A stretch of 14,391 bases of DNA from a virus (taxonomy: Duplodnaviria > Heunggongvirae > Uroviricota > Caudoviricetes): the IMG/VR virus record IMGVR_UViG_3300028985_000084, positions 1 through 14,391 of that record; one strand, given 5' to 3'. How positions within the stretch are numbered: the first letter of the stretch is position 1; the number at the start of each line of letters is the position of its first letter. Below are positions 1-11,781 of the stretch, one piece after another. The notes beneath the pieces are model-generated. The model was not told where the DNA came from. It did no database searches and saw only the letters and a list, made by a program, of their open reading frames with translations. Both the position numbers and the translations under genes were made by a program.

Positions 1-1314
1 TTAACTTACTGATTTTAATAAGCCTCTGGTGTCACTTTGGTGACTATGGGGCATCATTGGGACATAATCTGTCAGCTTCTGATTCAGCATTGCGATCTGT
101 TCTGCATTACTGTCAGTCATCCATGCTCCGTATACATTGAATACCATCTGGGCACTTGCATGGCCCATCTGGCTGGCAATGAAGCTTGGGTTTGCTCCGG
201 CAGATAATGACCAGCACGCATAAGTGTGTCGTGACTGGTATGCTTTCCGGTGCCTGATGCCCGCACGCTTAACGGCTGTTTCCCATGAGTCGCCAATAGA
301 ATCTACCTTGTAGATAAAACCGACCTGTTTGCTTTTTCTAACCACCTGGGGGTTAAATACGAAAGTACATTCATGATTCACTGAGCGCCCATATTCACGT
401 AGTTGAACCTTGATGTGGTGCTGCTTACCCAGTCTTGTCATTTCAGCCTGATTTTTCAGGACACTGATAGCGGGCTGGATAAGATGCACAACCCTGTTTG
501 TACTTGCTTCAGTTTTAGGTAGAGTGAACTCACTGAGTTTCGTATAATTGCGCCTGATAGTAATAGTTCCTGCTTTCAGATCGATATCTTCCCAGGCCAG
601 GGAGACCAGTTCACCGTGACGCATTCCTGTGTACACAGCCAATGACCACAGGTTTTTCGTTTGCTGATGTCGGCAAGCATCTATCAGGCGAATAAATTCG
701 TCACGAGTTAGCGGATCTGGCTCTGCCCTGGCTCTTTTAAGAGGCTTAATTCCCTGGAAGGGATTTGCTTCTAAGTAACCGTGATCTGCAGCAAACTGAA
801 ACATTCCAGCGATTGTCGTCATGTAATAATTTACAGTAACGACGCTCCGTCCTTTTGCTGCTGCTTTGTTTTTCGTTGAATTCTGGTACCCGGTCAGCAA
901 ATCTTTCCTGATATACAGCAATTCCTCTTTAGTTACCGATGACACCAGTCTGCTGCCTCCAATTTTCGGAACCATCGTTCTTGCAACGGATTCATAGCGA
1001 TTGAATGCATTTGCAGAGATCTCCATTCGTTTCAGATCCAGCCACTTTTCTTCAAGTTCCTTCACCGTAATTTCTTTTTTACTTACCCCAAAAGCCTGAA
1101 GGTTAGGGGATTCAGGGAACTGTGCAGCATAATCAAAGCTTCCTGTGCGGATGGCAAAACATACCGATGTCCGCAGTTCCCCGGCGATCTTCCTGTTCTT
1201 GGCAGTGTCAGGGACACCAAGATTTTCCCTGACACGTTTACCTTTAAAATTAAACCAGATGCGTAATGTGCCGCCGTGGTTTTCGACGCCTGTTGGATAT
1301 TTGACTTTATCCAT
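1..1314 (-). CDS. int: Tyrosine-type site-specific integrase (phage integrase with N-terminal arm-type DNA-binding region)
   Basis: 437-aa ORF. ATG at 1314 preceded by GGAGG about 5 nt upstream. C-terminal region carries the tyrosine-recombinase pattern (RHRKAYQSRHTYACW ... GHASAQMVFNVYGAW, i.e. H-x-x-R and a terminal Tyr). Stop codon occupies window bases 1-3. Confidence 0.92.
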   Translation of the reverse strand: MDKVKYPTGVENHGGTLRIWFNFKGKRVRENLGVPDTAKNRKIAGELRTSVCFAIRTGSFDYAAQFPESPNLQAFGVSKKEITVKELEEKWLDLKRMEISANAFNRYESVARTMVPKIGGSRLVSSVTKEELLYIRKDLLTGYQNSTKNKAAAKGRSVVTVNYYMTTIAGMFQFAADHGYLEANPFQGIKPLKRARAEPDPLTRDEFIRLIDACRHQQTKNLWSLAVYTGMRHGELVSLAWEDIDLKAGTITIRRNYTKLSEFTLPKTEASTNRVVHLIQPAISVLKNQAEMTRLGKQHHIKVQLREYGRSVNHECTFVFNPQVVRKSKQVGFIYKVDSIGDSWETAVKRAGIRHRKAYQSRHTYACWSLSAGANPSFIASQMGHASAQMVFNVYGAWMTDSNAEQIAMLNQKLTDYVPMMPHSHQSDTRGLLKSVS

Positions 1315-1369
1315 TGATACCTCCAGACGCCCAAGAGCGATACGAGCTTACATACTTCATGGCATTAAA

Positions 1370-1606
1370 TCACCCAGGTTGTTTGTTTTTCATTGAAGCG
1401 ACCCAGGCATCTATTGCTTTTCTGTTATACATACATTCACTGGAAGGCTTTGGATTACCGTCTGGTGATACGTGAATATACTCTCTTCCAACCATCCAGC
1501 ATTCTTTCCGGGCCCGAAGAATTGTGCCTGGTTTGAGCCCGGTAATTGCGATTAGAACGCTTTCACAAACCCATTCATTGGGAGCCAGTTGAATCACATT
1601 GCCCAT
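1370..1606 (-). CDS. xis: Excisionase (Xis-like small DNA-binding protein)
   Basis: 78-aa ORF directly upstream of int in the same orientation (classic xis-int arrangement). Segment RARKECWMVGREYIHV resembles the lambda Xis core (VRRWVRECRI..DGREYLFH, from memory). GAGG SD upstream of the ATG. Confidence 0.7.
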   Translation of the reverse strand: MGNVIQLAPNEWVCESVLIAITGLKPGTILRARKECWMVGREYIHVSPDGNPKPSSECMYNRKAIDAWVASMKNKQPG

Positions 1607-1614
1607 GCATTACC

Positions 1615-1761
1615 TCACACAACACTCAGCCCACGGCAGTGGCACCACACTTCAAACATTCGTTTCACAATTTCACGACAGTAGAAACCGTCAACATCTC
1701 GTGTCAGGTCATAGCGATTGCCGTAACGCTGGTGGACCCATCGTTCAAATGCTTTATTCAT
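1615..1761 (-). CDS. Hypothetical small protein (48 aa, MNKAFERWVHQRYGNRYDLTRDVDGFYCREIVKRMFEVWCHCRGLSVV)
   Basis: Below the ORF-track size cut-off; found by hand. ATG at ~1761 preceded by AAAGGAAG; open frame to TGA at ~1615; fills the gap between two co-directional genes. Confidence 0.4.
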   Translation of the reverse strand: MNKAFERWVHQRYGNRYDLTRDVDGFYCREIVKRMFEVWCHCRGLSVV

Positions 1762-1764
1762 TCT

Positions 1765-2007
1765 TTACTTCCTTTTCATGGCCCGTAATTTTTTCAGATG
1801 AGCTTCCTGCTCTGTTTCTGCCAGAATTTTGCGGTACTCCTGGTGGTCAATATGTTCGAACAGGCAGTTTAACTCACCAATGCGTACCCGCCCGGATCGT
1901 CCGTCCATCCGTCGAAAGAACACTGAGTGCTCAGTGATGCGAGTAATCACCACGGGGTATCCGGCTCTGTCCGTGTATATCTGACTGCGTTGAATCAAAG
2001 CGAACAT
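1765..2007 (-). CDS. Hypothetical phage protein (80 aa from ATG; ORF track extends to a TTG at 2043)
   Basis: ORF track 1765..2043 begins with TTG and has no SD. The internal ATG (MFALIQRSQ...) at ~2007 has GGGGA 7 nt upstream. Stop lies 3 nt before the next downstream start. Confidence 0.5.
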   Translation of the reverse strand: MFALIQRSQIYTDRAGYPVVITRITEHSVFFRRMDGRSGRVRIGELNCLFEHIDHQEYRKILAETEQEAHLKKLRAMKRK

Positions 2008-2091
2008 GTGGTTATCCCCATCGACAAATCGAGAACACAACAAACGCTGCTGCGAATACCACCCCCAGAGTTACGATTGCATCACGCCAGC

Positions 2092-2925
2092 TCATTGATT
2101 CACCTCCTGCGGCGGTTCTGGCAGCGGCATCCAGTGGGTTACCTCCTTGAGATACAGGTCTTCGCCACCACCGTCATCCCAAGTGGGCTTGCCATCATTA
2201 AACCAGTCGCCATATACGCCGACCTGAGTGTTGGGGATGCTTGGTGGGTAGTTGTTTTTAAAGTCAGCAGCTAACACATAGCATTGTCGCTCTCCCATTT
2301 CTGGCATTCGCTCACTACAGCTTATCCAACTATCCGGAGTTACCGGAAGCGAGAACGGCAGCACATCTCTGTGAACAAGTTTTTGCTGTGACAGGTTATC
2401 CAGAACTTTCTGTACTGCTGCATCACCGAATACACCAAGCGCATCTGCCATAACTCCTACAACCTGATAAGCCTCAGCGCATACCGTGGATAAACCATCC
2501 GGAATTACCGGAGAGTTGCCGGGTTCTTTAATGTGCAAGCGAGGCTCACCATCTTTTGGCTCAGGCCACTGGCGCTCCATGTTGATCTTCAATTTATCTT
2601 CCATAGCAACGTTAATTTCAGCATCGCTGATGCCAGCACGGCGTTGTGCATCCCACAACAGAAACTGCATATCAGCCCACTCGCTAAGATCGTCTGGTTC
2701 GGCTGCGGCTTCCAGTGCCTCTTTTGAGAGGTGTTTCAGTGGACCAATGGGGCCAACGCAGCCAAATGTGGAGTCAGACCATTTGGCATGCTCGTGGCGA
2801 ATCTGTTCGCGTTCCAGTGATGCCAGTGCAATTCGTGCCAGTTCCATTTGTTCGCCACGGGTAAGCCCGTTTTCAAGCGGGTATTTAATGAACAATTCGA
2901 TACGTTCTTTAGTGATAGTGCTCAT
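2092..2925 (-). CDS. Two-domain phage protein: N-terminal MazG-like dATP/dGTP pyrophosphohydrolase-type domain (DUF550-like) fused to C-terminal DUF551-like domain
   Basis: 277-aa ORF; ATG at 2925 with AAGGAG 6 nt upstream. C-terminus (…WISCSERMPE…THWMPLPEPP) matches my recollection of DUF551 proteins; the N-terminal half resembles the prophage DUF550 family. Domain calls are from memory, not a search. Confidence 0.7.
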   Translation of the reverse strand: MSTITKERIELFIKYPLENGLTRGEQMELARIALASLEREQIRHEHAKWSDSTFGCVGPIGPLKHLSKEALEAAAEPDDLSEWADMQFLLWDAQRRAGISDAEINVAMEDKLKINMERQWPEPKDGEPRLHIKEPGNSPVIPDGLSTVCAEAYQVVGVMADALGVFGDAAVQKVLDNLSQQKLVHRDVLPFSLPVTPDSWISCSERMPEMGERQCYVLAADFKNNYPPSIPNTQVGVYGDWFNDGKPTWDDGGGEDLYLKEVTHWMPLPEPPQEVNQ

Positions 2926-2926
2926 A

Positions 2927-3676
2927 TCACTCTCCTTTGATGCGAATGTTTACAACCTGGCAGGCCTCTTTTAGCATCCAGTAAATAGCGTCTTTCCATG
3001 CTCCGGTTTCGGCTGGCGGATTCTCACGTTTTACCTGCTCATAGAAGCGCACAGCTTTAACCAGTCCTTCCGGCACTACTGGCGATGGCTGTTTAGCTTC
3101 TAAATCAGCAATTCTGTCAACCACGGCATCGACAGCATCTGAAAAGCCGAACCAGTTGCTCCACTCCGGCCTGTTACCGGTTGCTGCAAAGTACATATCA
3201 GCTAAAGCAGACTCAGCATGGTCACGCTCGTTAATGAGTTGCTCTTCGCTTTTCTCCAGTTCAGCAATACGCTTACTTCCATCCGAGATAACGCCCTCGT
3301 AATACTCACGCTGCTCGTTGAGTTGTGATTTTGTCTCCTCAAGTTCAGCAACCAGTTTTCGAAGCCCTTCAATCTCACCATTGCGAGCAATGAGGTCGCG
3401 GCACATGCTTTCGTTCTCATCCAGCAGTGCCAGCACGGTAGCCGGGTTAGCCTCTGCTATGAATTCAGCGTTTGCATAAGCCTGAGCATCTGTTTCAATC
3501 AGGCAGTTAACATGACATTCTGCAATCACGCCACCGGGTTCTCCTTTCCATTTTTGGCAAACAAAAACTCCTGTTAAATTGCCGTGCTGGTTAACAGATG
3601 TATGCCCTACGATGTAGCTTCCTTTAGTTGCTTTCTCTGCCGCCTCACGCAGTACCTGATAGTCAATCTTGCTCAC
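2927..3676 (-). CDS. Ead/Ea22-like prophage protein (coiled-coil rich)
   Basis: ORF track 2927..3709. Likely start is the GTG at ~3676 (VSKIDYQVL…), preceded by AAGGAGG and overlapping the upstream stop in a GTGA coupling arrangement. Central region (ANPATVLALLDENES…, heptad-like E/L/K) is typical of Ead/Ea22-like proteins. Confidence 0.7.
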   Translation of the reverse strand: MSKIDYQVLREAAEKATKGSYIVGHTSVNQHGNLTGVFVCQKWKGEPGGVIAECHVNCLIETDAQAYANAEFIAEANPATVLALLDENESMCRDLIARNGEIEGLRKLVAELEETKSQLNEQREYYEGVISDGSKRIAELEKSEEQLINERDHAESALADMYFAATGNRPEWSNWFGFSDAVDAVVDRIADLEAKQPSPVVPEGLVKAVRFYEQVKRENPPAETGAWKDAIYWMLKEACQVVNIRIKGE

Positions 3677-4023
3677 TGGTTGCCTCCTTTGCGAATCTGT
3701 TCCGCCCATTCTTCTAGGGATTTCTCCGCATATTCACCGGACAGGCCATCAATCGGGTGTGGTTCATTAGCCAACTCTTCTTTCGCTGACAGAATCATGC
3801 GTGTAACGTCGAAAACTTCACGTAAAGACTTATTGATAAATCCGTGATTGAAAGCCGCAGCAAGACGGCTTGCGGTATAGTTAATACCCTCGTTGCGAGC
3901 CTCAGCACGTACTTCATCGAATTTACGCACCAGATACTCAGCATTTGTTTCATTCACTTTCAGATCTCGTGGTACACATTTCCCGCGAAGAAACCCTTCC
4001 ATTTCGAAAACATTCATGCGCAT
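3673..4023 (-). CDS. Hypothetical early-left-operon protein (YfdS-like by position and size)
   Basis: 116-aa ORF; ATG at 4023 with GGAG 8 nt upstream; a second ATG at 4017 overlaps the upstream stop (ATGA). Confidence 0.6.
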   Translation of the reverse strand: MRMNVFEMEGFLRGKCVPRDLKVNETNAEYLVRKFDEVRAEARNEGINYTASRLAAAFNHGFINKSLREVFDVTRMILSAKEELANEPHPIDGLSGEYAEKSLEEWAEQIRKGGNQ

Positions 4024-4550
4024 TTGCGTAACTCCGATAACTCGTTAAAACGTTCCATAAACATCCCGTAGGCATGGCCTGGCGACAGTGGAATCACTTT
4101 GAACATCTCTGTTGCCGGGATACCTTCCAGTACAGGCCAGAAAGAGCTATCATCAAGCCCGAGATCGCGGCGTTCGGTTGCCAGCATGATGAGATCGGCA
4201 TATTTCACGGGCGTGCTCATAACCGGGGGTAACCCGTATTTCTCACGGATTACGGCGTCTATTTTTTCTTCCATCCGTTTATAGTCAGGAAGAAGGCGTT
4301 TCAGTGGAGCGGGAATATCCTGGCAATACGCTTCTGTTGCATCATGCATTAACGCTTCAAAAGCAAATTCCTGCGGCACCAGCTGGCTGCAAAGCACCGC
4401 ATGTTGGGCGACACTGTAGAAGTGAGAAAGATGACCGGCAAAGCGGCAGATATTTGAAAGGGAAACCGCGATATCGTTAATCACGATGTCGTCTTTATTT
4501 ATCCTGTCATAATAAAAATGCTTCCCGGAAAAAGTTTTAATAAATGACAT
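4014..4550 (-). CDS. yfdR: HD-domain phosphohydrolase, 5'-deoxynucleotidase YfdR-like
   Basis: ORF track 4014..4577. Preferred start is the ATG at 4550 (MSFIKTFSGKHFYY…) with GGAG 7 nt upstream, giving 178 aa. HD signature H…HD…D present (…HAVLCSQLV…EALMHDATEAY…). Follows a 274-aa yfdQ-like gene as in CPS-53. Confidence 0.8.
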   Translation of the reverse strand: MSFIKTFSGKHFYYDRINKDDIVINDIAVSLSNICRFAGHLSHFYSVAQHAVLCSQLVPQEFAFEALMHDATEAYCQDIPAPLKRLLPDYKRMEEKIDAVIREKYGLPPVMSTPVKYADLIMLATERRDLGLDDSSFWPVLEGIPATEMFKVIPLSPGHAYGMFMERFNELSELRKCA

Positions 4551-4643
4551 TTTGTTCTCCACGTATATGCGCTGCACCGCGCTGAGTTTGGGTAAAAGGA
4601 AGCCCTCACCATCCGGTGATTATTGAGTTAATTACGTTTCCAT

Positions 4644-4665
4644 AAATGCCCCCGCAGGGGCATTT
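4644..4665 (-). terminator. Intergenic GC hairpin (AAATGCCCC-loop-GGGGCATTT) between yfdQ-like and yfdR-like genes; possible attenuator or processing site
   Basis: Near-perfect 9-bp inverted repeat with 4-nt loop read from the sequence; only a weak U-tract follows on the minus strand. Confidence 0.3.
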
Positions 4666-4677
4666 GCAGTAATGAAA

Positions 4678-5502
4678 TCAGGCGGTGAAAGTACCAATAA
4701 AGGTTTCTACTTTGCTGTCTTTGAATTTCTCAACAAGCAGATCACGAAATTCGTTAGCCATATCTTCCTGCACCGCTTCCAGCTGAATAATGCGCATAAC
4801 CAGTACAGGACGATCGCCAGTGATAATGCTGAGGCGTAATTTAAACGGACGTTCTTTCAGACCTTCAAACGGAACGCATTTAAATTCAAATGTCACTGGC
4901 ATAATGTCTTTGGTCTTCGCTTCGACAGATTCCATCAGGGAGCGTTTGCCGCTGAAGTCATTGTCTTCAAAATCAGCGGTCTGGTTCGCTTCAATTGTGA
5001 TTTTACGGATCGCCGCAACCGCTTTGGTTGCCTGAATGGCGTCACCATTAGCATCAAAGCCCACAAGGTAGTCGGCCCAGTCTTCAATCCATTCTGCCAG
5101 TGACTTTTGGGAGTTACGCTCGCCATTAACAGACAACAGAGCAGAGAACGGTGCTGTCTTTTTCAGTTTGAGAGTGGCGGTGTTATCTGCGTGACCTGGT
5201 TCATCAATAGTACCCAGGTTAAGCACACTGACGGCACGCATATTATCGGCATCGATAAAGCAGCGGGTGCCTTCATCTGCAAGATCTTTAGAATAACGGG
5301 TAAAGTCATCGATGCTGGCAGTGGAAAGCGCACCACGGAAACGGAAGCGATTTAAATTAAATTTTTCCAGATCATGAATGCGGAAATTCTCAGGCAATGC
5401 CACAGCATCGGCACCAATCTTACTAATAATTTCATTAACACCCTGAGCAGAAATAAGGGCATGGATTTGATTAATTGCGGTTGCGTCTAAGTTCTGAGAC
5501 AT
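4678..5502 (-). CDS. yfdQ: YfdQ-like protein (DUF2303 family), function unknown
   Basis: 274-aa ORF; ATG at 5502 with GAGGA 6 nt upstream. Size and position between 120-aa and 178-aa HD genes match the CPS-53 yfdP-yfdQ-yfdR order. Confidence 0.75.
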
Positions 5503-5567
5503 AATAAGTCCTCACTATATAAAGATATTCAGTGATGAGATAAATAATCGGTTAATTAAGAACGATA

Positions 5568-5930
5568 TTAATGACCTGCTGCGCGGAGTTTTCCGTCAGG
5601 TTCACCGGCAAGAGTCAGTAATTGTCCCTGGTCTTCCTGCAGAATAGTCAGGCGACCACCTCGATTGACATACATCGGCGTTTCGGTGGTGTCTTCTTCG
5701 GAGATTTTCCCGCGGTTAGTCGGGCGAACATATGAGAGTTTGTGTTTGATTTTCACACGGTTCTCATCAAACGGTTCGATGTCCAGATTGACCGAGACTT
5801 TACCTTTGTTTTTCGTGTTCATCACACCGGAAGCGACTTCACTGAGAACTGCGCCGAGTTTGGTTTCAAATACGCCGCCGTCCAGTTCTACGATAAATAC
5901 CTGCACATCAGTACTGCGTACGCTAGCCAT
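5568..5930 (-). CDS. yfdP: YfdP-like small protein (120 aa), first gene of the leftward early cluster
   Basis: ORF track gives a 182-aa frame (5568..6116). The internal ATG at ~5930 (MASVRSTDVQ…) has GAGGAG 8 nt upstream and yields 120 aa; the 62-codon upstream extension has no SD. Confidence 0.6.
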   Translation of the reverse strand: MASVRSTDVQVFIVELDGGVFETKLGAVLSEVASGVMNTKNKGKVSVNLDIEPFDENRVKIKHKLSYVRPTNRGKISEEDTTETPMYVNRGGRLTILQEDQGQLLTLAGEPDGKLRAAGH

Positions 5931-5978
5931 TTTGCTGCTCCTCATCATACCGACCCTGCAAGGTCGGTTGGTTTCTCC

Positions 5979-6067
5979 ACAAAACAGAGAAGAACACCTG
6001 CGGTGACAGCCGCCCGGATGGATTGGGTTATGAGCCCGTCGTCCGGTGATGCTCTTCTCTGTTTTGT
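5979..6067. repeat. Perfect 15-bp inverted repeat (ACAAAACAGAGAAGA … TCTTCTCTGTTTTGT) separated by ~59 bp, in the leader upstream of the leftward cluster
   Basis: Read directly from the sequence; arms are exact reverse complements. A 15-bp perfect IR is very unlikely by chance in 14 kb. Confidence 0.8.
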
Positions 6068-6335
6068 AAAAAGAGCGGTACCAGCCGGAAGCAAGTGTAC
6101 AAACTGGTACCGCCAAAGCAGTGGCTGTTGTGGTGACCGGTGCTGATCTCCGGCTTGCGGTTATTTCAGACTCTCACGGGCGTTTAATTGCCCCGCCGAA
6201 CAGCTCTTTTCCGCAATAGCTGCAATGTCTTTCGCGCATCAGCCTGCGCATTCACCACAACGCTAAGGATTCTCTCTGGTTGAAAATACTTAGCTGTTAT
6301 GTGCCTGCTTTTAGCCACATCAGGCGAGGTGGACC

Positions 6336-6399
6336 TGGTTATTCCCCAACAACAAGGATTTGGTTATTATGTAACCCTCCCCAACAACGATAAGGATTT
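6336..6399 (+). repeat. Tandemly duplicated module TGGTTATT … CCCCAACAAC … AAGGATTT (two copies, second with short insertions)
   Basis: Direct repeat read from the sequence. Each copy ends in AAGGA followed by an ATG: copy 1 gives ATG-TAA (start-stop), copy 2 gives the ATG of mini-ORF P1. Confidence 0.7.
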
Positions 6400-6401
6400 A
6401 T

Positions 6402-6491
6402 ATGGATCTATGTGTAGATAAGTATGAGGAGAGGCATGTGCCGTTAAGACAAAAGCCTCCAGTTCCTCCAAAACCACCCAAGGAAAACTGA
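6402..6491 (+). CDS. Proline-rich mini-ORF P1 (29 aa, MDLCVDKYEERHVPLRQKPPVPPKPPKEN); possible leader peptide/uORF
   Basis: ATG with AAGGA 5 nt upstream; TGA stop 7 nt before the ATG of the downstream membrane-protein gene; paralogous to two further mini-ORFs downstream. Confidence 0.35.
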   Translation: MDLCVDKYEERHVPLRQKPPVPPKPPKEN

Positions 6492-6498
6492 GACTAAT

Positions 6499-6993
6499 AT
6501 GACCAGAGACGATTATAAATTTTATGTTCACTACTCTTATGTATTGGAGAAGATGAATTACACGTTGTTAACTCGCATTGATAAATTAATAACGTTGATG
6601 TTAATCGTTCTCGGTTTTTCAGTTTTCGCCCCGTACAGTAATTTATTTATTTTCGGTTTGTTTGTTGCCGTACTTTCGGTTCTTCAGTTGGTCTATCAGT
6701 TTGGCCAAGAGGCTGGAATGTCTAAAGAGCAAGCGAGGCATTACAAAAGACTGCTGATTGAGTCTGATACCCTTCCTGAAGATCAGTTGCAAGCTAGGTA
6801 TTTAAAAATCCAAGATACTGATAGTAATCCATGGAAATCACTTGAACGAGCGGCTTTCATTCGGGCCTGTATTTTTGCTGGTGTTCCAACTAAGTACGAT
6901 TTAACAACCAAAGAAAAATTTATAGCTTGGTGTGCGGGAGATCTACCTCTAGAGAATGAACTAACGGATATTAATGATGACCAACAAGCATAA
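6499..6993 (+). CDS. Small inner-membrane protein with two N-terminal TM helices and a ~95-aa soluble C-terminal domain; candidate superinfection-exclusion (SieB-like) or abortive-infection protein
   Basis: 164-aa ORF in an AT-rich segment. Hydrophobic stretches LITLMLIVLGFSVFAPY and LFIFGLFVAVLSVLQLVYQF. On the opposite strand to the early-left genes and convergent with the repressor, the position SieB-type genes occupy in lambdoid prophages. Functional call is positional inference only. Confidence 0.65.
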   Translation: MTRDDYKFYVHYSYVLEKMNYTLLTRIDKLITLMLIVLGFSVFAPYSNLFIFGLFVAVLSVLQLVYQFGQEAGMSKEQARHYKRLLIESDTLPEDQLQARYLKIQDTDSNPWKSLERAAFIRACIFAGVPTKYDLTTKEKFIAWCAGDLPLENELTDINDDQQA

Positions 6994-7048
6994 TCCAGTT
7001 CACGGACATGTACCTCCGAAGCCGAAACCACCGAAACCGAAGAAATGA
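6974..7048 (+). CDS. Proline-rich mini-ORF P3 (24 aa, MMTNKHNPVHGHVPPKPKPPKPKK), overlapping the 3' end of the membrane-protein gene
   Basis: Open frame from ATG ATG to TGA; no clear SD. Peptide shares the H-V-P-P-K-P-K-P-P motif with P1 and P2. Confidence 0.25.
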   Translation: MMTNKHNPVHGHVPPKPKPPKPKK

Positions 7049-7067
7049 GACATAATAGGATTGGATA

Positions 7068-7136
7068 ATGAGTCGACCAATAGAGCCTTTTCATATTCCA
7101 CCTCGTCCCAGGCCACCAGATCCAGGCCCAAAGTGA
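7068..7136 (+). CDS. Proline-rich mini-ORF P2 (22 aa, MSRPIEPFHIPPRPRPPDPGPK)
   Basis: ATG with AGGA ~7 nt upstream; followed ~25 nt later by an intrinsic terminator; paralogous to P1 and P3. Confidence 0.35.
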   Translation: MSRPIEPFHIPPRPRPPDPGPK

Positions 7137-7159
7137 GGGTTACTGATTTTTAAAGAGCG

Positions 7160-7184
7160 AAGCGTCCGGTAGGGCGCTTTTTTG
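7160..7184 (+). terminator. Rho-independent terminator closing the plus-strand insert operon
   Basis: 8-bp stem AAGCGTCC / GGGCGCTT (one G-U pair) with GGTA loop, followed by a 6-7 nt T-tract. Confidence 0.65.
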
Positions 7185-7298
7185 GTACTAACGAATCATC
7201 CTGGACTTCATATGCCCCAGGCGGCTACTTCGTGGGCGTCCTGCCTGTTCGTTATCTTTGATATAAAATCTAACTTAACTTAGTTTTAATGGCAAGAG

Positions 7299-7330
7299 AA
7301 AACACCAAACTTTTCTTAGTTCGGTGTTTT
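7299..7330 (-). terminator. Hairpin downstream of the repressor gene, candidate (bidirectional) terminator
   Basis: Inverted repeat AAAACACCAAAC … GTTCGGTGTTTT with 8-nt loop; on the minus strand the stem is followed by UUUUCUCUU; lies ~20-50 nt past the cI-type stop. Confidence 0.4.
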
Positions 7331-7349: not shown

Positions 7350-7976
7350 CTAGAGTTCGTATTGAACTCCTTTGACTACACCAATGATGAGGCAATTACC
7401 ATTGATCGGGATGTTGGGGTACCGGGGATTTAATGGCACTAAAAACTTTTGAGGGCCATCGATAACTAATTTTTTTACTGTGGCTTCGTTTGTTCCATCA
7501 AGTCTAGCGATGACTATTTTTCCATGCCGGGGTTCTGCATCAGGATCTACAATCACTGTTGCGCCTTCTGGTATTGTTGGGAGGCCGTTAGGGTTAGTCA
7601 TGGAGTCGCCTTTAACCTCCAATGCAAATGAGTTATCACCAATCTTTAATGATGTATCTACCCACTTGTCTACTTCACTAAACACTTCTGCTGTCCTGCA
7701 CTCAGTAAACTGCCCAGCCTGAACCCACGAGATTACAGGAACTCTGCGCATGTTTGTGACGAGTTTGCCTTCAAACTCCGCACCATAAAGAATGTAATCT
7801 ATTGACGTATTGAAGAACTTCGCTAATTTTGAAAGTGCTTCCCCACCAGGGACATTGATGTCTTTCTCCCAGTACCCCACAGCAACGTCACTTACTCCAC
7901 AAAATTTACCCAATTCTTTCTGGGACGTTCTGGTAACTCTTCTCAGAGCTTTTATACGCTGACCAACCGTTTCCAT
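7350..7976 (-). CDS. cI: CI-type prophage repressor (N-terminal HTH, C-terminal S24 LexA-like autopeptidase domain)
   Basis: 208-aa ORF. N-terminal HTH (QKELGKFCGVSDVAVGYWE). C-terminal S24 signature including GDSM (catalytic Ser) and a downstream Lys. Divergent from a cro-like gene. Confidence 0.9.
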   Translation of the reverse strand: METVGQRIKALRRVTRTSQKELGKFCGVSDVAVGYWEKDINVPGGEALSKLAKFFNTSIDYILYGAEFEGKLVTNMRRVPVISWVQAGQFTECRTAEVFSEVDKWVDTSLKIGDNSFALEVKGDSMTNPNGLPTIPEGATVIVDPDAEPRHGKIVIARLDGTNEATVKKLVIDGPQKFLVPLNPRYPNIPINGNCLIIGVVKGVQYEL

Positions 7977-9231: not shown

Positions 9232-9263
9232 GGGACGATCATGAGCAAACCAGTAATGATTGA
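9072..9263 (+). CDS. Hypothetical small phage protein (63 aa, DUF4222-like by recollection), TTG start
   Basis: TTG at 9072 preceded by AAGGAG with 9-nt spacer. Product (…[39 protein letters not shown]…) looks like a genuine globular small protein. Confidence 0.45.
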
Positions 9264-10095
9264 TTCTGCCATTCCGGGACGTTACACTGTTCAGGCACCT
9301 TATAAAGCGGGTGCCGGGATTGGCGTCCTGAAATTGTCAACGGCGATGTATGACGCGCCAGCGTCTTTTTTATCGTCCGCATTTGCTCACATCCAGATTA
9401 TGGTGGGCTGGGCGGGGGCACCGAAAGGTGCGCCGGTCTCCGTTGACGCCGGTTACGCCAACCCCGTCCAGTTCACCACCAGTGAAATTGGCGTTTCCGG
9501 TGGTGGAAGTTTTTCACTGTCAACGGAGGCTGCCATCATGGCTACGATCCCAGCCCTCACTCAACCTGAAATCACCATTGACAACGGCCAGGCCGTTACC
9601 ACTTCTTTGGCTGTTGCCAACTTCTTCTCCAAGCGTCACGACGATGTGCTGAAAAAGATCCGCACTCTGGATTGTTCCCCTGAGTTTTGTGCCCGCAATT
9701 TTGCGGAGACATCGATTTCGGTAAATCAACCGAACGGTGGTACACGCAAGCTCCTTTGCTATCAAATCACACGAGACGGTTTTGCGTTTCTTGCTATGGG
9801 TTTCACGGGTAAACGTGCTGCCCGGTTCAAAGAGGCATACATCAATGCCTTTAACCAGATGGAACAGGCGCTGATCGGAAAGGTTGATACTTCATGTGTC
9901 GCGCACAATGCCCACGTTGTTTACCTCTACATGGCTGAAATTCACCGCGTTTGGTTAGAACAACTTTATCCGATGCTGGTTTCAGTTCAGTCTCCGCTGG
10001 CTTCATCGCTCTACGACTACATCAACGATGGTGTATTCGTTGCCGGGCTGGTGGACTCGGAACTGAACGAAAAGCATAAGGAGGTGCGTAAGTGA
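9241..10095 (+). CDS. Rha-family phage regulatory protein with an unusual ~100-aa N-terminal extension
   Basis: 284-aa ORF. Residues ~105-200 (ITIDNGQAVTTSLAVANFFSKRHDDVLKKIRTL…) fit the Rha N-terminal domain. ATG at 9241 has AAGGGA upstream; an internal ATG at ~9538 has a strong GGAGG 8 nt upstream and would give a canonical ~186-aa Rha protein. Confidence 0.75.
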   Translation: MSKPVMIDSAIPGRYTVQAPYKAGAGIGVLKLSTAMYDAPASFLSSAFAHIQIMVGWAGAPKGAPVSVDAGYANPVQFTTSEIGVSGGGSFSLSTEAAIMATIPALTQPEITIDNGQAVTTSLAVANFFSKRHDDVLKKIRTLDCSPEFCARNFAETSISVNQPNGGTRKLLCYQITRDGFAFLAMGFTGKRAARFKEAYINAFNQMEQALIGKVDTSCVAHNAHVVYLYMAEIHRVWLEQLYPMLVSVQSPLASSLYDYINDGVFVAGLVDSELNEKHKEVRK

Positions 10096-11033
10096 GCACC
10101 AAATTAACCGGCTATGTATGGGATGGTTGCGCAGCGTCAGGCATGAAATTATCCAGTGTGGCAATTATGGCCCGTCTGGCTGATTTCAGTAATGACGAGG
10201 GTGTGTGCTGGCCATCAATTGAAACCATTGCCCGCCAGATTGGCGCGGGGATGAGTACCGTCAGAACGGCTATCGCACGGCTGGAAGCAGAAGGCTGGTT
10301 AACGCGTAAGGCGCGTCGCCAGGGTAACCGCAATGCGTCGAATGTTTATCAGCTTAACGTTGCGAAGCTTCAGGCTGCGGCATTTTCTCAACTGTCAGAT
10401 TCTGACCCGTCAAAATCTGACGCATCAAAATCTGACCCGTCAAAATTTGATGCGTCGAAATCTGGCAAAAAAGCGTGTTTTCACCCGTCAGAATCTGGCG
10501 GGGATCCGTCAGTAAAATCAAAACATGATCCGTCAGATAAAAAACCTTCTCGTCCGGACGCTTTGCAACCGGACACGCAGACGGCTGAACAGGATTTTTT
10601 AACTCGCCATCCTGATGCGGTTGTATTCAGCCCTAAAAAGCGCCAGTGGGGAACGCAGGATGATTTGACCTGCGCACAGTGGCTCTGGAAAAAAATCATC
10701 GCCCTGTACGAGCAGGCCGCCGAATGTGACGGCGAGGTGGTTCGTCCCAAAGAACCGAACTGGACAGCATGGGCAAACGAAATTCGCCTGATGTGTGTGC
10801 AGGATGGTCGTACTCACAAACAAATCTGCGAGATGTACAGCCGCGTCAGCCGTGATCCGTTCTGGTGCCGTAACGTGCTCAGCCCGTCGAAGTTGCGGGA
10901 AAAATGGGATGAGCTTTCCCTGCGCTTATCGCCGTCCGTCAGCACGCACACAGAAAAACGTGAAGACCCGTACTTCAAAGCCAGTTACGACAACGTGGAC
11001 TACAGCCAGATCCCGGCAGGATTCAGGGGGTGA
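10092..11033 (+). CDS. Replication initiator / replisome organiser (lambda O-like; N-terminal HTH, origin iterons inside the gene)
   Basis: 313-aa ORF; GTG start overlapping the upstream stop (GTGA) with AAGGAGG 8 nt upstream. N-terminal HTH (…CWPSIETIARQIGAGMSTVRTAIARLEAEGWL…). Internal 15-bp tandem repeats encode SKSDx pentapeptide repeats. Confidence 0.8.
   Translation: MSTKLTGYVWDGCAASGMKLSSVAIMARLADFSNDEGVCWPSIETIARQIGAGMSTVRTAIARLEAEGWLTRKARRQGNRNASNVYQLNVAKLQAAAFSQLSDSDPSKSDASKSDPSKFDASKSGKKACFHPSESGGDPSVKSKHDPSDKKPSRPDALQPDTQTAEQDFLTRHPDAVVFSPKKRQWGTQDDLTCAQWLWKKIIALYEQAAECDGEVVRPKEPNWTAWANEIRLMCVQDGRTHKQICEMYSRVSRDPFWCRNVLSPSKLREKWDELSLRLSPSVSTHTEKREDPYFKASYDNVDYSQIPAGFRG
10395..10510 (+). 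repeat. Origin-like iteron array: five contiguous 15-bp direct repeats (consensus TCAAAATCTGACNCR, ~10395-10469) plus two degenerate copies and an A-rich tract
   Basis: Read directly: TCAGATTCTGACCCG / TCAAAATCTGACGCA / TCAAAATCTGACCCG / TCAAAATTTGATGCG / TCGAAATCTGGCAAA. In-frame within the initiator gene, as lambda ori lies inside gene O. Confidence 0.7.
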
Positions 11034-11035
11034 TC

Positions 11036-11128
11036 ATGAGTCTGTTAAATGACGTTCAGAAATTCATTGAAGCCCATCCGGGCTGTACTTCCGGAGACAT
11101 TGCGGATGCTTTTTACGTGGGGGCTTAA
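11036..11128 (+). CDS. Hypothetical small protein (30 aa, MSLLNDVQKFIEAHPGCTSGDIADAFYVGA)
   Basis: Below ORF-track cut-off. ATG 2 nt after the initiator stop with AGGGGG 5 nt upstream; its TAA overlaps the next gene's ATG (TAATG). Confidence 0.35.
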   Translation: MSLLNDVQKFIEAHPGCTSGDIADAFYVGA

Positions 11129-11781
11129 TGAGTAATAAATATTGCCAGGCGCTGGTAGAACTGCGGAACAAACCAGCCCATGAACTGAAGGAAGTGGGCG
11201 ATCAGTGGCGCACGCCGGACAACATTTTCTGGGGAATTAACACCTTGTTTGGTCCGTTTGTTCTGGATCTGTTCACTGACGGTGATAACGCCAAATGTGC
11301 CGCGTATTACACGGCGGAAGACAACGCGCTGGCGCATGACTGGTCAGAACGTCTTGCGGAGCTTAAAGGTGCTGCCTTTGGTAATCCCCCATACAGCCGC
11401 GCCAGTCAGCATGAGGGGCAATACATCACCGGCATGCGTTACATCATGAAACATGCCAGTGCCATGCGTGATAAGGGCGGGCGCTATGTTTTCCTGATCA
11501 AAGCTGCCACCAGCGAAGTGTGGTGGCCGGAAGATGCGGACCATATTGCTTTTATTCGCGGGCGTATTGGTTTTGAACTGCCTGCCTGGTTTATACCGAA
11601 GGACGAGAAGCAGGTGCCGACAGGCGCTTTCTTCGCTGGTGCTATTGCTGTTTTCGACAAGACCTGGAAGGGACCGGCAATCAGCTACATCGGGCGCGAT
11701 GAACTTGAGGCATGTGGTGAGGCATTTCTGGCGCAGGTTCGCCAGCAGGCGGAAAAACTGGTCAGGGAGATGGTGGCATGA
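11128..11781 (+). CDS. Phage DNA N6-adenine methyltransferase (Dam-like)
   Basis: 217-aa ORF with the (D/N)PPY catalytic motif (GNPPYS) and an N-terminal W-R-T-P-type motif typical of phage Dam proteins. Confidence 0.85.
   Translation: MSNKYCQALVELRNKPAHELKEVGDQWRTPDNIFWGINTLFGPFVLDLFTDGDNAKCAAYYTAEDNALAHDWSERLAELKGAAFGNPPYSRASQHEGQYITGMRYIMKHASAMRDKGGRYVFLIKAATSEVWWPEDADHIAFIRGRIGFELPAWFIPKDEKQVPTGAFFAGAIAVFDKTWKGPAISYIGRDELEACGEAFLAQVRQQAEKLVREMVA

What the first reader, a model, noticed from the sequence alone, without database searches (positions are those of the whole stretch)
2092..5930. Early-left operon encodes two different nucleotide hydrolases in a yfdPQR-like cluster
The leftward operon combines an HD-domain 5'-deoxynucleotidase (YfdR-like, 4014-4550) with a MazG-like dATP/dGTP pyrophosphohydrolase-type domain fused to DUF551 (2092-2925), plus the uncharacterised YfdQ-like DUF2303 protein. 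Sequentially these activities could convert dNTP to dNMP to deoxynucleoside, which suggests manipulation of host nucleotide pools or removal of nucleotide-derived defence signals. From memory, and not verifiable here, the CPS-53 yfdQRST cluster has been reported to inhibit chromosomal replication initiation, with YfdR binding DnaA. The operon shows tight translational coupling throughout (GTGA/ATGA overlaps).
Basis: partly seen in the sequence, partly recalled or inferred. Interest (0 to 1): 0.5.

Follow-up and report, generated by a model that had tools for sequence, protein, structure and literature searches.

The report
Known prophage genes, chance enzyme pairing
Both nucleotide-hydrolase genes are really there in this E. 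coli prophage, but they belong to separate, independently shuffled gene blocks that rarely occur together, so the proposed two-step nucleotide-degradation pathway is most likely a chance juxtaposition.

Summary
The gene calls hold. Window 2092-5930 (minus strand) encodes yfdP, yfdQ (DUF2303) and yfdR (HD hydrolase), 93-99% identical to E. coli K-12 CPS-53. They are followed by a 116-aa ORF, an Ea22-like gene and a P22-EaA-like protein (DUF550 + DUF551).

YfdR keeps the HD metal ligands. The DUF550 domain aligns end to end with the crystallised (d)GTP pyrophosphohydrolase MazZ of cyanophage S-2L and keeps four of its five metal ligands.

The functional link is not supported. DUF550 occurs in 2 of 68 yfdR-centred viral loci. 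yfdR occurs in 5 of 61 DUF550-centred loci. DUF550 occurs in 4 of 68 species-level yfdQ loci. A mosaic breakpoint near 3917 separates the two genes, and DUF550 is one of several swappable middle modules of its gene.

"Tight coupling throughout" is wrong at two junctions. yfdP-yfdQ has a 65-nt gap. yfdQ-yfdR has a 127-nt spacer with three hairpins that are conserved, with compensatory changes, across Enterobacterales and match no Rfam family.

The recalled yfdQRST/DnaA report is correct (PMC4776307). Overall this is an ordinary, already annotated lambdoid early-left region. The conserved spacer is the only uncharacterised feature.

The parts
5568..5930 (-). yfdP (120 aa, no known function)
   Evidence: 93% identical to K-12 YfdP. 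PHROG 204, unknown function. Sits directly upstream of yfdQ in 68/68 species-level loci.
5503..5567 (-). yfdP-yfdQ spacer, 65 nt, ordinary intergenic with a GAGGA ribosome-binding site
   Evidence: Sequence. In other species this spacer is 20-72 nt and not conserved.
4678..5502 (-). yfdQ (274 aa, DUF2303)
4551..4677 (-). Conserved structured yfdQ-3' spacer. P1 at 4644-4665 (9-bp GC-rich stem, tail UUUAU). P2 at 4606-4619. A short conserved 2-3-bp helix at 4590-4605. P3 at 4569-4582 with a conserved GGUGCA/GUGCAG loop. Ribosome-binding site GGAG at 4557-4560.
   Evidence: 25 sequences, 98.2% of cells paired against 90.0% in shuffles (0/500 reach it), 9 pairs with compensatory changes against 3.4, and slid controls at most 57% paired. 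Sense-strand G.U 28 against A.C 2. Identity 73.8%, against 50.3% at yfdQ third codon positions. No Rfam hit at E up to 1. Found after yfdQ whatever gene follows.
4014..4550 (-). yfdR (178 aa, HD-domain hydrolase annotated as 5'-deoxynucleotidase; the K-12 orthologue binds DnaA)
   Evidence: 97% identical to K-12 YfdR. PDB 2gz4 E 1.4e-13. H50, H69, D70, E73, D78 and D119 conserved. PHROG 318 E 1e-109. Below the Pfam and NCBIfam YfbR cut-offs.
3673..4023 (-). orf116, a mosaic gene. Its first 42 aa match the K-12 YfdS N-terminus and the rest is unrelated. The block boundary lies near 3917.
   Evidence: 88% over 42 aa. Similarity to K-12 and to phage mEp460 ends at 3915-3917.
2927..3676 (-). Ea22-like coiled-coil protein (249 aa from the GTG at 3676)
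   Evidence: Pfam Ead_Ea22 E 2.3e-30. RefSeq annotates the same 750-nt CDS. GTGA overlap with the orf116 stop, with an AAAGGAGG ribosome-binding site.
2092..2925 (-). EaA-like protein (277 aa). Constant N-terminal leader at 2803-2925. DUF550 MazZ-like NTP pyrophosphohydrolase domain at 2515-2802. Optional linker at 2341-2505. Hypervariable DUF551 at 2107-2331.
   Evidence: Pfam. 45% identical to P22 EaA over 98% of its length. hhalign to S-2L MazZ and to the SH-Ab 15497 enzyme. E69, E72, E82, D85, D92, K111, N115, R118 and W120 are invariant in 150 representatives. Domain mosaic shown.
2012..2095 (-). 27-aa hydrophobic ORF (MSWRDAIVTLGVVFAAAFVVFSICRWG) overlapping the EaA stop by ATGA
   Evidence: Not annotated in RefSeq relatives. 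Whether it is a real gene was not tested.
1..2007 (-). Downstream end of the same leftward gene string: DUF4222 (1765-2007), orf48 (1615-1761), excisionase (1370-1606), integrase (1-1314)
   Evidence: Pfam and RefSeq annotation of relatives.
7264..7295 (-). Candidate pL promoter (TTGCCA-17-TAGATT) overlapping an OL-like operator copy; the presumed start of the leftward transcript
   Evidence: Promoter scan. The 31-nt repeat is shared with two sites in the cI-cro intergenic region.

Best explanation
The stretch is the early-left accessory arm of an intact CPS-53/mEp460-type lambdoid prophage of E. coli. It is made of two evolutionarily separate blocks joined near position 3917.

Block 1 is yfdP, yfdQ, a structured spacer and yfdR. 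It is a conserved module. In K-12 its demonstrated activity is interference with host replication initiation: YfdR binds DnaA domain I (Phe46) and competes with DiaA and DnaB, and yfdQ is also required in vivo. YfdR keeps an intact HD active site, so a low-affinity 5'-deoxynucleotidase activity is likely retained.

Block 2 is a translationally coupled string of shuffled 'ea' cassettes: orf116, Ea22-like, EaA-like, a 27-aa ORF, DUF4222, orf48, xis and int. The EaA-like protein has three parts. The N-terminal leader is constant. The central module is swappable, and here it is DUF550, a MazZ-like all-alpha NTP pyrophosphohydrolase that most likely cleaves a purine (d)NTP, probably guanine, to (d)NMP plus pyrophosphate. 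The C-terminal DUF551 is hypervariable and portable.

The two hydrolases act independently. Their presence in one operon here is a product of mosaic recombination, not an evolved two-step pathway.

Shown here: gene identities, conservation of catalytic residues, independent assortment and the mosaic boundaries.
Taken from the literature for K-12: DnaA binding.
Inferred: substrates, transcription as one unit, and independence of function.
For: Identity to K-12 yfdPQR is 93-99%, within 2037 nt of 97% nucleotide identity that ends at 3917. Sequenced phages (mEp460, vB_EcoS-569R4, PhiR29) share 3915/3917 to about 14080 and diverge to the left.

Module conservation across one genome per species:
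- yfdP-yfdQ adjacent in 68/68 loci;
- yfdR follows in 51/68;
- DUF550 present in 4/68.

IMG/VR loci: DUF550 in 2/68 yfdR loci with enough downstream sequence, and yfdR in 5/61 DUF550 loci with enough upstream sequence.

E. coli complete genomes: yfdR in 2971/5426, this DUF550 in 513/5426, and the whole 3.8-kb arrangement at 80% coverage or more in 4.

The same N-terminal leader and DUF551 flank unrelated central modules in other prophages. In the family alignment DUF550 is nearly invariant, DUF551 is hypervariable and the linker is optional. DUF550 sits at variable positions in proteins of 111-457 aa, and only 20/150 representatives carry DUF551. P22 has EaA in the same position next to xis-int, with erf/abc instead of yfdPQR.

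Catalytic competence:
- HD ligands are conserved.
- MazZ ligands E35, E38, E50 and D53 correspond to E69, E72, E82 and D85.
- The MazZ guanine-N2 contact D60 corresponds to D92.
- K76, N80, R83, W85 and H95 correspond to K111, N115, R118, W120 and H131.

DnaA binding and initiation inhibition come from PMC4776307.
Against: - The loci sampled are the 80 best matches per query and include many clonal copies, for example the vertically inherited CPS-53 remnant. The fractions are therefore not independent counts, and no phylogenetically corrected test was run.
- Co-occurrence does recur in at least four loci from different genomes (Kosakonia, Klebsiella, Scandinavium and L205), so some selective benefit of the pair is not excluded.
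- Both genes are on the same strand downstream of the same candidate promoter. In Z-genome phages an HD enzyme (DatZ) and a DUF550/MazZ enzyme are true functional neighbours.
- MazZ ligand E34 aligns with K68, and the O6 determinant N20 with F54, so substrate and activity are uncertain.
- The AF2 model of EaA failed (pLDDT 34.5), so there is no direct fold evidence.
- The authors of the K-12 study themselves note that the overexpression phenotype could be an artefact.
Confidence: 0.7

Rival explanations
1. First reader's model. EaA (DUF550) and YfdR work in sequence. The pyrophosphohydrolase makes dNMP from dATP/dGTP and the HD nucleotidase strips the phosphate. This drains host purine dNTP pools to stall host replication or starve a competitor.
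For: Both enzymes look catalytically intact. They lie in the same leftward gene string. The product of one is formally a substrate class of the other. The pair recurs in a few other genera.
Against: Co-occurrence is only 3-8%. A mosaic boundary lies between the genes. DUF550 is a swappable cassette. EaA exists without yfdR in P22. YfdR is reported to have nucleotide affinities much lower than YfbR (PMC4776307, citing Zimmerman 2008). A phage that replicates with canonical dNTPs would harm itself by draining dATP and dGTP.
Confidence: 0.1
2. The EaA DUF550 domain is an anti-defence or host-takeover enzyme acting on a guanine nucleotide other than bulk dGTP. Candidates are (p)ppGpp, as for the phage MazG-like Atd1, or a defence-made nucleotide analogue. 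DUF551 would act as a variable targeting or decoy domain. YfdR plays no part.
For: A phage MazG-like pyrophosphatase (Atd1) depletes (p)ppGpp and protects against TIR effectors (bioRxiv 10.1101/2022.06.09.495361). DUF550 keeps the guanine-N2 contact D92. An invariant catalytic core next to a hypervariable DUF551 is the pattern expected of an arms-race gene. It sits in the early accessory region where anti-defence genes cluster.
Against: Atd1 belongs to a different MazG subfamily: hhalign of DUF550 against E. coli MazG found nothing. No substrate data exist for any lambdoid DUF550. The only assayed relatives hydrolyse dGTP/dATP or (d)GTP (PMC8342488, PMC12884076).
Confidence: 0.15
3. The HD plus DUF550 pair is a remnant or variant of the Z-genome (2-aminoadenine) purine-pool toolkit, DatZ plus MazZ.
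For: In Acinetobacter phage SH-Ab 15497 and cyanophage S-2L, a DUF550/MazZ gene lies next to an HD (YfbR-like) DatZ gene. Window YfdR is 30% identical to DatZ over 93 aa. Window DUF550 aligns with both MazZ types.
Against: No PurZ homologue in the window or in 2.95 Mb of related loci. The element is a prophage replicated by the host. According to PMC12884076, DUF550 proteins of Z-genome phages form their own monophyletic group. The two genes are unlinked in enterobacterial prophages.
Confidence: 0.02

Closest known systems
E. coli K-12 cryptic prophage CPS-53 (KpLE1) yfdP-yfdQ-yfdR-yfdS-yfdT cluster
   Same: yfdP, yfdQ and yfdR are 93%, 99% and 97% identical in the same order, with the same 127-nt yfdQ-yfdR spacer. 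The first 42 aa of YfdS are also present. K-12 yfdO, yfdN and yfdM match window 10325-11394.
   Different: The window is an intact early region with cI, cro, int and xis, whereas K-12 holds a rearranged remnant. There is no YfdT and no intact YfdS. Downstream of codon 42 of yfdS the window carries orf116, Ea22-like and EaA-like genes instead. DUF551 here is fused to DUF550 rather than forming YfdS.
Salmonella phage P22 EaA (DUF550 + DUF551) in the 'ea' region next to xis-int
   Same: 45% identity over 98% of the protein. Same domain order, and same position in the early-left arm a few genes before xis and int.
   Different: P22 has erf/arf/abc recombination genes and no yfdPQR. The function of P22 EaA is not given in the record.
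MazZ / DUF550 dATP-dGTP pyrophosphohydrolases of Z-genome phages (S-2L MazZ, crystal structure; SH-Ab 15497 DUF5664-DUF550 fusion)
   Same: Homologous catalytic domain: hhalign probability 94.9% and 98.7%. Conserved metal and substrate residues. An HD enzyme is encoded nearby in those phages too.
   Different: No PurZ and no DUF5664 domain. In the SH-Ab enzyme the DUF5664 domain type has since been shown to be active on its own (PMC12884076), so the Pfam name for DUF550 rests partly on a two-domain protein. E34 is replaced by K68 and N20 by F54. The domain is fused to DUF551. The host phage is temperate with normal DNA.
YfbR / HD-domain 5'-deoxynucleotidases and DatZ
   Same: HD fold and H...HD...D ligands, plus R36, E73 and D78, which match YfbR R18, E72 and D77 (the YfbR numbering is from my own knowledge).
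   Different: Scores fall below the YfbR family cut-offs. The closest solved relative is the uncharacterised Atu1052. YfdR is reported to have much lower nucleotide affinity and to bind DnaA (PMC4776307).
Atd1, phage MazG-like (p)ppGpp pyrophosphatase (anti-TIR defence)
   Same: A phage-encoded all-alpha NTP-pyrophosphatase-superfamily accessory gene that acts on a guanine nucleotide.
   Different: Different subfamily, from a Pectobacterium phage. No sequence link was tested directly.
Lambda Ea22 and the portable DUF551 domain
   Same: The Ead_Ea22 N-terminal and coiled-coil region is present in the neighbouring gene. DUF551 is described as a portable domain in PMC10834534.
   Different: The C-terminal part of the window Ea22-like protein differs. 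Here DUF551 is on the next gene.

Membership tests
HD-domain phosphohydrolase superfamily (YfdR type) | H...HD...D metal-binding motif | tested here: met
   H50, H69-D70 and D119 are present and aligned with DatZ and with 2gz4.
HD-domain phosphohydrolase superfamily (YfdR type) | Significant sequence homology to a solved HD protein | tested here: met
   PDB 2gz4 (Atu1052), E 1.4e-13 over residues 19-175.
YfbR 5'-deoxynucleotidase family (Pfam PF12917, NCBIfam PRK03826) | Score above the curated family cut-off | tested here: not met
   24.2 bits against 25.9, and 19.8 bits against 122. It is a YfdR orthologue (97% identical), not a YfbR orthologue.
YfdR 5'-deoxynucleotidase (EC 3.1.3.89) and DnaA binder | dNMP phosphatase activity and DnaA domain I binding | not testable with these tools
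   Only the 97% identity to the K-12 protein that was assayed (PMC4776307, which cites Zimmerman 2008; that paper is not held).
PF04447 DUF550 / dATP-dGTP pyrophosphohydrolase | Pfam gathering score | tested here: met
   139.9 bits against a cut-off of 23, covering 96 of 97 profile positions.
MazG-HisE all-alpha NTP pyrophosphohydrolase fold | Homology to a member with a solved structure | tested here: met
   hhalign against S-2L MazZ: probability 94.9%, E 1.1e-8, 99 columns. There was no hit to E. coli MazG, and no PDB hit by phmmer.
MazG-HisE all-alpha NTP pyrophosphohydrolase fold | Predicted 3-D fold | tested here: inconclusive
   The AF2 model has mean pLDDT 34.5 because the alignment has no diversity in the domain. 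It was not used for a fold search.
MazG-HisE all-alpha NTP pyrophosphohydrolase fold | Acidic metal ligands (MazZ E34, E35, E38, E50, D53) | tested here: met
   E69, E72, E82 and D85 are conserved and invariant in 150 representatives. E34 aligns with K68, so four of five are kept.
DUF551 (PF04448) | Pfam gathering score | tested here: met
   71.3 bits against a cut-off of 22.
DUF2303 / YfdQ family | Pfam gathering score and orthology to K-12 YfdQ | tested here: met
   309.7 bits and 99% identity.
Z-genome cluster (PurZ-DatZ-MazZ) | Presence of the PurZ adenylosuccinate-synthetase homologue | tested here: not met
   tblastn with SH-Ab 15497 PurZ found nothing in the window or in 2.95 Mb of related loci. 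The rest of the prophage was not seen.
Translationally coupled operon | Stop/start overlaps or gaps of a few nucleotides at every junction | tested here: not met
   Met from yfdR to xis. Not met at yfdP-yfdQ (65 nt) or yfdQ-yfdR (127 nt).
Intrinsic terminator (for hairpin P1) | GC-rich stem followed by a U-tract of 5 or more | tested here: inconclusive
   The stem is a conserved 9 bp, but the tail is only UUUAU, and the consensus scan did not call it. In Morganella the tail is UUUUUAU.
Any Rfam RNA family (for the yfdQ-3' spacer) | Covariance-model match | tested here: not met
   No match at E up to 1 in 4548-4680.

The most novel reading that the evidence does not exclude
The 127-nt spacer after yfdQ (4551-4677) is an undescribed cis-acting RNA element of enterobacterial prophages. 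It has a terminator-like hairpin followed by two further conserved hairpins and conserved single-stranded blocks. It would set how much transcription or translation passes from the conserved yfdPQ pair into a swappable downstream gene slot. That slot holds yfdR in about 75% of species, and an LRR-repeat protein, an exonuclease-like protein or other genes elsewhere. It might respond to the phage antitermination state or to a ligand or protein. A second, weaker possibility: the constant-leader / swappable-module / DUF551 gene is a modular effector family in which DUF551 targets varied enzymatic cargo.
Probability: 0.35. Interest if true: 0.45.

Novelty: already known. Interest (0 to 1): 0.22.

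Why it matters
If the two-enzyme pathway were real, it would be a compact phage tool for draining host purine dNTPs. The comparative data argue that it is not an evolved unit, so the finding mainly warns against reading function from gene adjacency in mosaic phage arms.

Some useful results remain.
- The window shows the intact context of the much-studied K-12 yfdPQRST remnant.
- The core of that module is yfdP-yfdQ plus a conserved structured spacer. yfdR is only the commonest occupant of the next slot. This bears on how the DnaA-inhibition phenotype should be interpreted.
- The lambdoid DUF550 domain keeps the MazZ active site, which makes a simple substrate assay worthwhile.
- The Pfam name 'dATP/dGTP pyrophosphohydrolase' comes from a distant two-domain enzyme and should be applied with care.

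Tried and rejected
- AlphaFold2 of the EaA-like protein gave pLDDT 34.5, because the available homologues are invariant in the DUF550 domain. No fold search was run on it.
- phmmer of EaA against PDB sequences found nothing relevant.
- hhalign of the DUF550 profile against E. coli MazG found nothing (probability 0.05%). The link to the fold rests on S-2L MazZ.
- The search of 50%-identity representatives returned only domains at least 75% identical in the top 150, so it added no diversity.
- PADLOC gave nothing for seven of the eight proteins tested and one marginal hit for Ea22-like (DruC, E 0.0076, 12.8 bits), which I regard as chance.
- Rfam gave nothing in 2092-5930.
- BLASTP of K-12 YfdS against the window DUF551 found no similarity. 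The idea that yfdS arose by a simple deletion between orf116 and the EaA DUF551 was therefore dropped.
- The Zimmerman 2008 paper with YfdR kinetics is not held.
- The nut-site reading of the spacer was rejected: it has no boxA-like GCTCTT. boxA-like strings do occur elsewhere (about 7146-7158 and 6063-6076).
- The literature on DUF2303 holds no functional data.

Full report
**What the window is.** The 14.4-kb window is the immunity and early region of an E. coli lambdoid prophage. Leftward genes run from a LexA-family repressor (7350-7976) down to excisionase (1370-1606) and integrase (1-1314). A cro-like gene and replication genes run rightward. In two RefSeq genomes the same arrangement sits next to cmoA-yecN and a DUF72 gene, and every gene of the finding is already annotated there. 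The 3.8-kb stretch matches parts of 4274 of 5426 complete E. coli genomes. Only four genomes carry at least 80% of it as one piece.

**Checking the observation.**
- ORF 2092-2925 (277 aa) matches PF04447 (dATP/dGTP pyrophosphohydrolase, formerly DUF550) at E 3.3e-41 over residues 42-137, and DUF551 at E 1.2e-19 over residues 199-273.
- ORF 4678-5502 is DUF2303 (E 2e-92).
- ORF 4014-4550 gives only sub-threshold hits to the YfbR family: 24.2 bits against 25.9 in Pfam, and 19.8 against 122 in NCBIfam.
- Compared with K-12 CPS-53, the three upstream genes are orthologues, not just look-alikes. YfdP is 93% identical, YfdQ 99% and YfdR 97%.
- The 116-aa ORF shares only its first 42 residues with YfdS.
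- YfdR aligns with the HD protein Atu1052 (PDB 2gz4, E 1.4e-13). It keeps H50, H69-D70 and D119, plus R36, E73 and D78.

**Translational coupling.** The claim of coupling "throughout" is only partly right.
- From yfdR to xis the junctions are tight. They are ATGCGCATGA, GTGA, TGAtATG, ATGA onto an unannotated 27-aa hydrophobic ORF, and then gaps of 3-8 nt.
- yfdP and yfdQ are 65 nt apart.
- yfdQ and yfdR are 127 nt apart.

**The literature memory.** It was correct. Noguchi and Katayama (PMC4776307) showed three things. Multicopy yfdQRS or yfdQRT inhibits initiation at oriC. YfdR binds DnaA in a Phe46-dependent way. YfdR competes moderately with DiaA and DnaB. They also relay that YfdR has much lower nucleotide affinity than YfbR, and they caution that the overexpression effect might be an artefact.

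**Is DUF550 a MazG-like enzyme, and is it likely active?**
- Direct structure prediction failed (mean pLDDT 34.5). Every accessible homologue is nearly invariant in this domain.
- I therefore compared a DUF550 profile with enzymes of known activity.
  - It aligns over 99 columns with S-2L MazZ, a crystallised (d)GTP-specific enzyme with the MazG-HisE fold (probability 94.9%, E 1.1e-8).
  - It aligns over 97 columns with the DUF550 part of the SH-Ab 15497 enzyme (probability 98.7%).
  - It does not align with E. coli MazG.
- I mapped the published MazZ residues (PMC8342488) onto the window protein.
  - Metal ligands E35, E38, E50 and D53 correspond to E69, E72, E82 and D85. E34 corresponds to K68.
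  - The guanine N2 contact D60 corresponds to D92.
  - K76, N80, R83, W85 and H95 correspond to K111, N115, R118, W120 and H131.
  - Apart from H131, which is conserved in at least 90% of them, these residues are invariant in 150 cluster representatives.
- The domain is therefore very probably an active purine-NTP pyrophosphohydrolase.
- One caveat concerns the Pfam name. It comes from the SH-Ab two-domain protein. That protein matches PF04447 far more weakly (33 bits) than the window protein does (140 bits). Its other domain type, DUF5664, has since been shown to hydrolyse dATP, dGTP and dUTP on its own (PMC12884076).

**Are the two hydrolases a functional pair?** Comparative genomics says no.
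- Among 80 IMG/VR loci centred on yfdR, 68 had enough downstream sequence. Two of those carry DUF550.
- Among 80 loci centred on DUF550, 61 had enough upstream sequence. Five of those carry yfdR.
- In 68 yfdQ loci, each from a genome chosen as its species' representative, yfdP is adjacent in all 68. yfdR follows in 51. DUF550 occurs in 4.
- Nucleotide similarity to K-12 CPS-53 and to sequenced phages such as mEp460 and vB_EcoS-569R4 stops at 3915-3917, inside orf116. The two enzymes therefore lie in different mosaic blocks.
- The EaA-type gene is itself a mosaic.
  - The same roughly 40-aa N-terminal leader and a DUF551 C-terminus enclose unrelated central modules in other prophages.
  - The linker (residues 141-195) is optional, and DUF551 is hypervariable while DUF550 is invariant.
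  - Only 20 of 150 DUF550 representatives carry DUF551.
- P22 EaA is 45% identical over 98% of the protein. It sits at the same place near xis-int in a left arm that has erf/abc and no yfdPQR.
- These samples are biased towards close relatives and contain clonal copies, so the fractions are descriptive only. Even so, they give no sign of linkage.
- The Z-genome analogy is attractive because DatZ (HD) and MazZ/DUF550 are neighbours there. It fails on the absence of PurZ and on biology, since this is a prophage replicated by the host.

**The yfdQ-yfdR spacer.** This part of the finding's interval turned out to be the least ordinary.
- *Structure.* Across Enterobacterales the spacer keeps three hairpins.
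  - P1 lies 12-15 nt after the yfdQ stop. It has a 9-bp stem, and one pair switches between A-U and U-A 12:11.
  - P2 is followed by an invariant GGG and a conserved AGGGAUUCGUGCAACCAAAA block.
  - P3 has a conserved GGUGCA/GUGCAG loop.
  - A ribosome-binding site follows.
- *Covariation.* On 25 distinct sequences, 98.2% of cells are paired against 90.0% in shuffles (0 of 500 reach that). Nine pairs have double changes against 3.4 expected. Slid controls reach at most 57% paired.
- *Which strand folds.* G.U pairs outnumber A.C 28 to 2 on the sense strand, which points to the mRNA strand folding.
- *Selection.* The spacer is as conserved as the flanking coding sequence: 73.8% against 73.2% and 68.5%. 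It is far more conserved than yfdQ third codon positions (50.3%). The yfdP-yfdQ spacer, by contrast, is variable and unstructured.
- *Where it occurs.* A covariance model finds the element directly after yfdQ even where the next gene is not yfdR. In those loci the next gene is an LRR-repeat protein, an exonuclease-like protein or others. The element is therefore tied to yfdQ, and yfdR is only the commonest occupant of a variable slot.
- *What is known about it.* Rfam has no match. The E. coli sequence alone folds with z = -1.8. The U-tail of P1 is short (UUUAU). My best reading is a leaky terminator or 3' stabiliser for yfdPQ, plus a leader for the next gene. This is inference only.

**Other proteins.** YfdQ modelled reasonably (pLDDT 76) but has no informative solved relative. 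PHROGs lists YfdP, YfdQ, orf116 and the EaA-type families as unknown function. PADLOC gave only one marginal, probably chance hit, for Ea22-like. No functional literature exists for DUF2303. DUF551 is described only as a portable domain (PMC10834534). A phage MazG-like enzyme, Atd1, depletes (p)ppGpp as an anti-defence measure (bioRxiv 10.1101/2022.06.09.495361). That is a plausible alternative role for a guanine-directed DUF550, but it is untested.

**Verdict.** All genes are already annotated, three of them are K-12 genes with a published phenotype, and the pairing of the two hydrolases is best explained by mosaic shuffling. Interest is low. The conserved structured spacer after yfdQ is the one feature that deserves follow-up.

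Noticed in passing
window 9295-9483 (+): Rfam finds isrK (9295-9371, 62 bits) and C4 antisense RNA (9396-9483, 81 bits), both above gathering score. They lie at the start of the Rha/antirepressor-like ORF 9241-10095. This looks like a P1/P7-type C4-controlled antirepressor module in the early-right arm.
   Followed up: no
window 7146-7330 (-): The cI stop is followed by a terminator-like hairpin at 7299-7330. Next comes a promoter-like site at 7295-7267, overlapping an operator copy (7264-7294) shared with two sites between cI and cro. A boxA-like CGCTCTTTAAAAA lies near 7146-7158. No N-like gene is evident downstream.
   Followed up: partly
window 6499-6993 (+): A 164-aa ORF with predicted membrane helices and 38% GC lies antisense to the presumed pL transcript. 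P22 sieB holds the same relative position and orientation. It has no Pfam or PADLOC match and falls in PHROG 6315, unknown function.
   Followed up: partly
window 5931-6498 (-): The 570-nt region upstream of yfdP has no gene. It contains a 25-bp-arm inverted repeat (5979-6003 / 6043-6067) preceded by a boxA-like CGCTCTTTTTACAA. It also has three copies of a roughly 15-nt motif, AATCCTT(A/G)NCGTTGT, at 6257-6399. K-12 similarity starts only at 5952.
   Followed up: no
window 2012-2095 (-): A 27-aa hydrophobic ORF starts with ATGA on the EaA stop and ends 4 nt before the DUF4222 gene, filling an otherwise empty 84-nt gap. It is not annotated in RefSeq relatives.
   Followed up: no
L001 3857-4690 and L002 4001-4834 (RefSeq genomes): The NCBI pipeline splits the intact 277-codon EaA ORF into a 42-codon 'partial, missing C-terminus' pseudogene and a 218-aa CDS, although translation shows no stop or frameshift. 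This is an annotation artefact, probably caused by the mosaic N-terminal leader.
   Followed up: yes
L001 (E. coli AR_0013) 3857-7088: The Ea22-like plus DUF550 gene pair is present twice in tandem in this otherwise near-identical prophage. The second DUF550 copy is truncated.
   Followed up: no
window 10325-11394 versus K-12 yfdO/yfdN/yfdM: K-12 yfdO, the start of yfdN, and yfdM are 96-100% identical to parts of the window's replication-protein gene (10092-11033) and adenine methyltransferase gene (11128-11781). These K-12 'genes' are therefore fragments of a phage like this one.
   Followed up: partly
L172, L174, L177-L179, L181-L183, L186, L192 (just after the yfdQ-3' element): Where yfdR does not directly follow the element, the slot holds other genes. 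Examples are a leucine-rich-repeat-like protein with TGITSLPENLSVGGSLDL repeats, a DnaQ-like exonuclease-like protein, and small unknown ORFs.
   Followed up: partly
DUF550 family: The DUF550 core is at least 75% identical across 150 different 50%-identity clusters. Their flanks differ completely: proteins range from 111 to 457 aa and the domain starts anywhere from residue 1 to 312. This is unusually strong conservation of a small domain inside very fluid architectures.
   Followed up: partly
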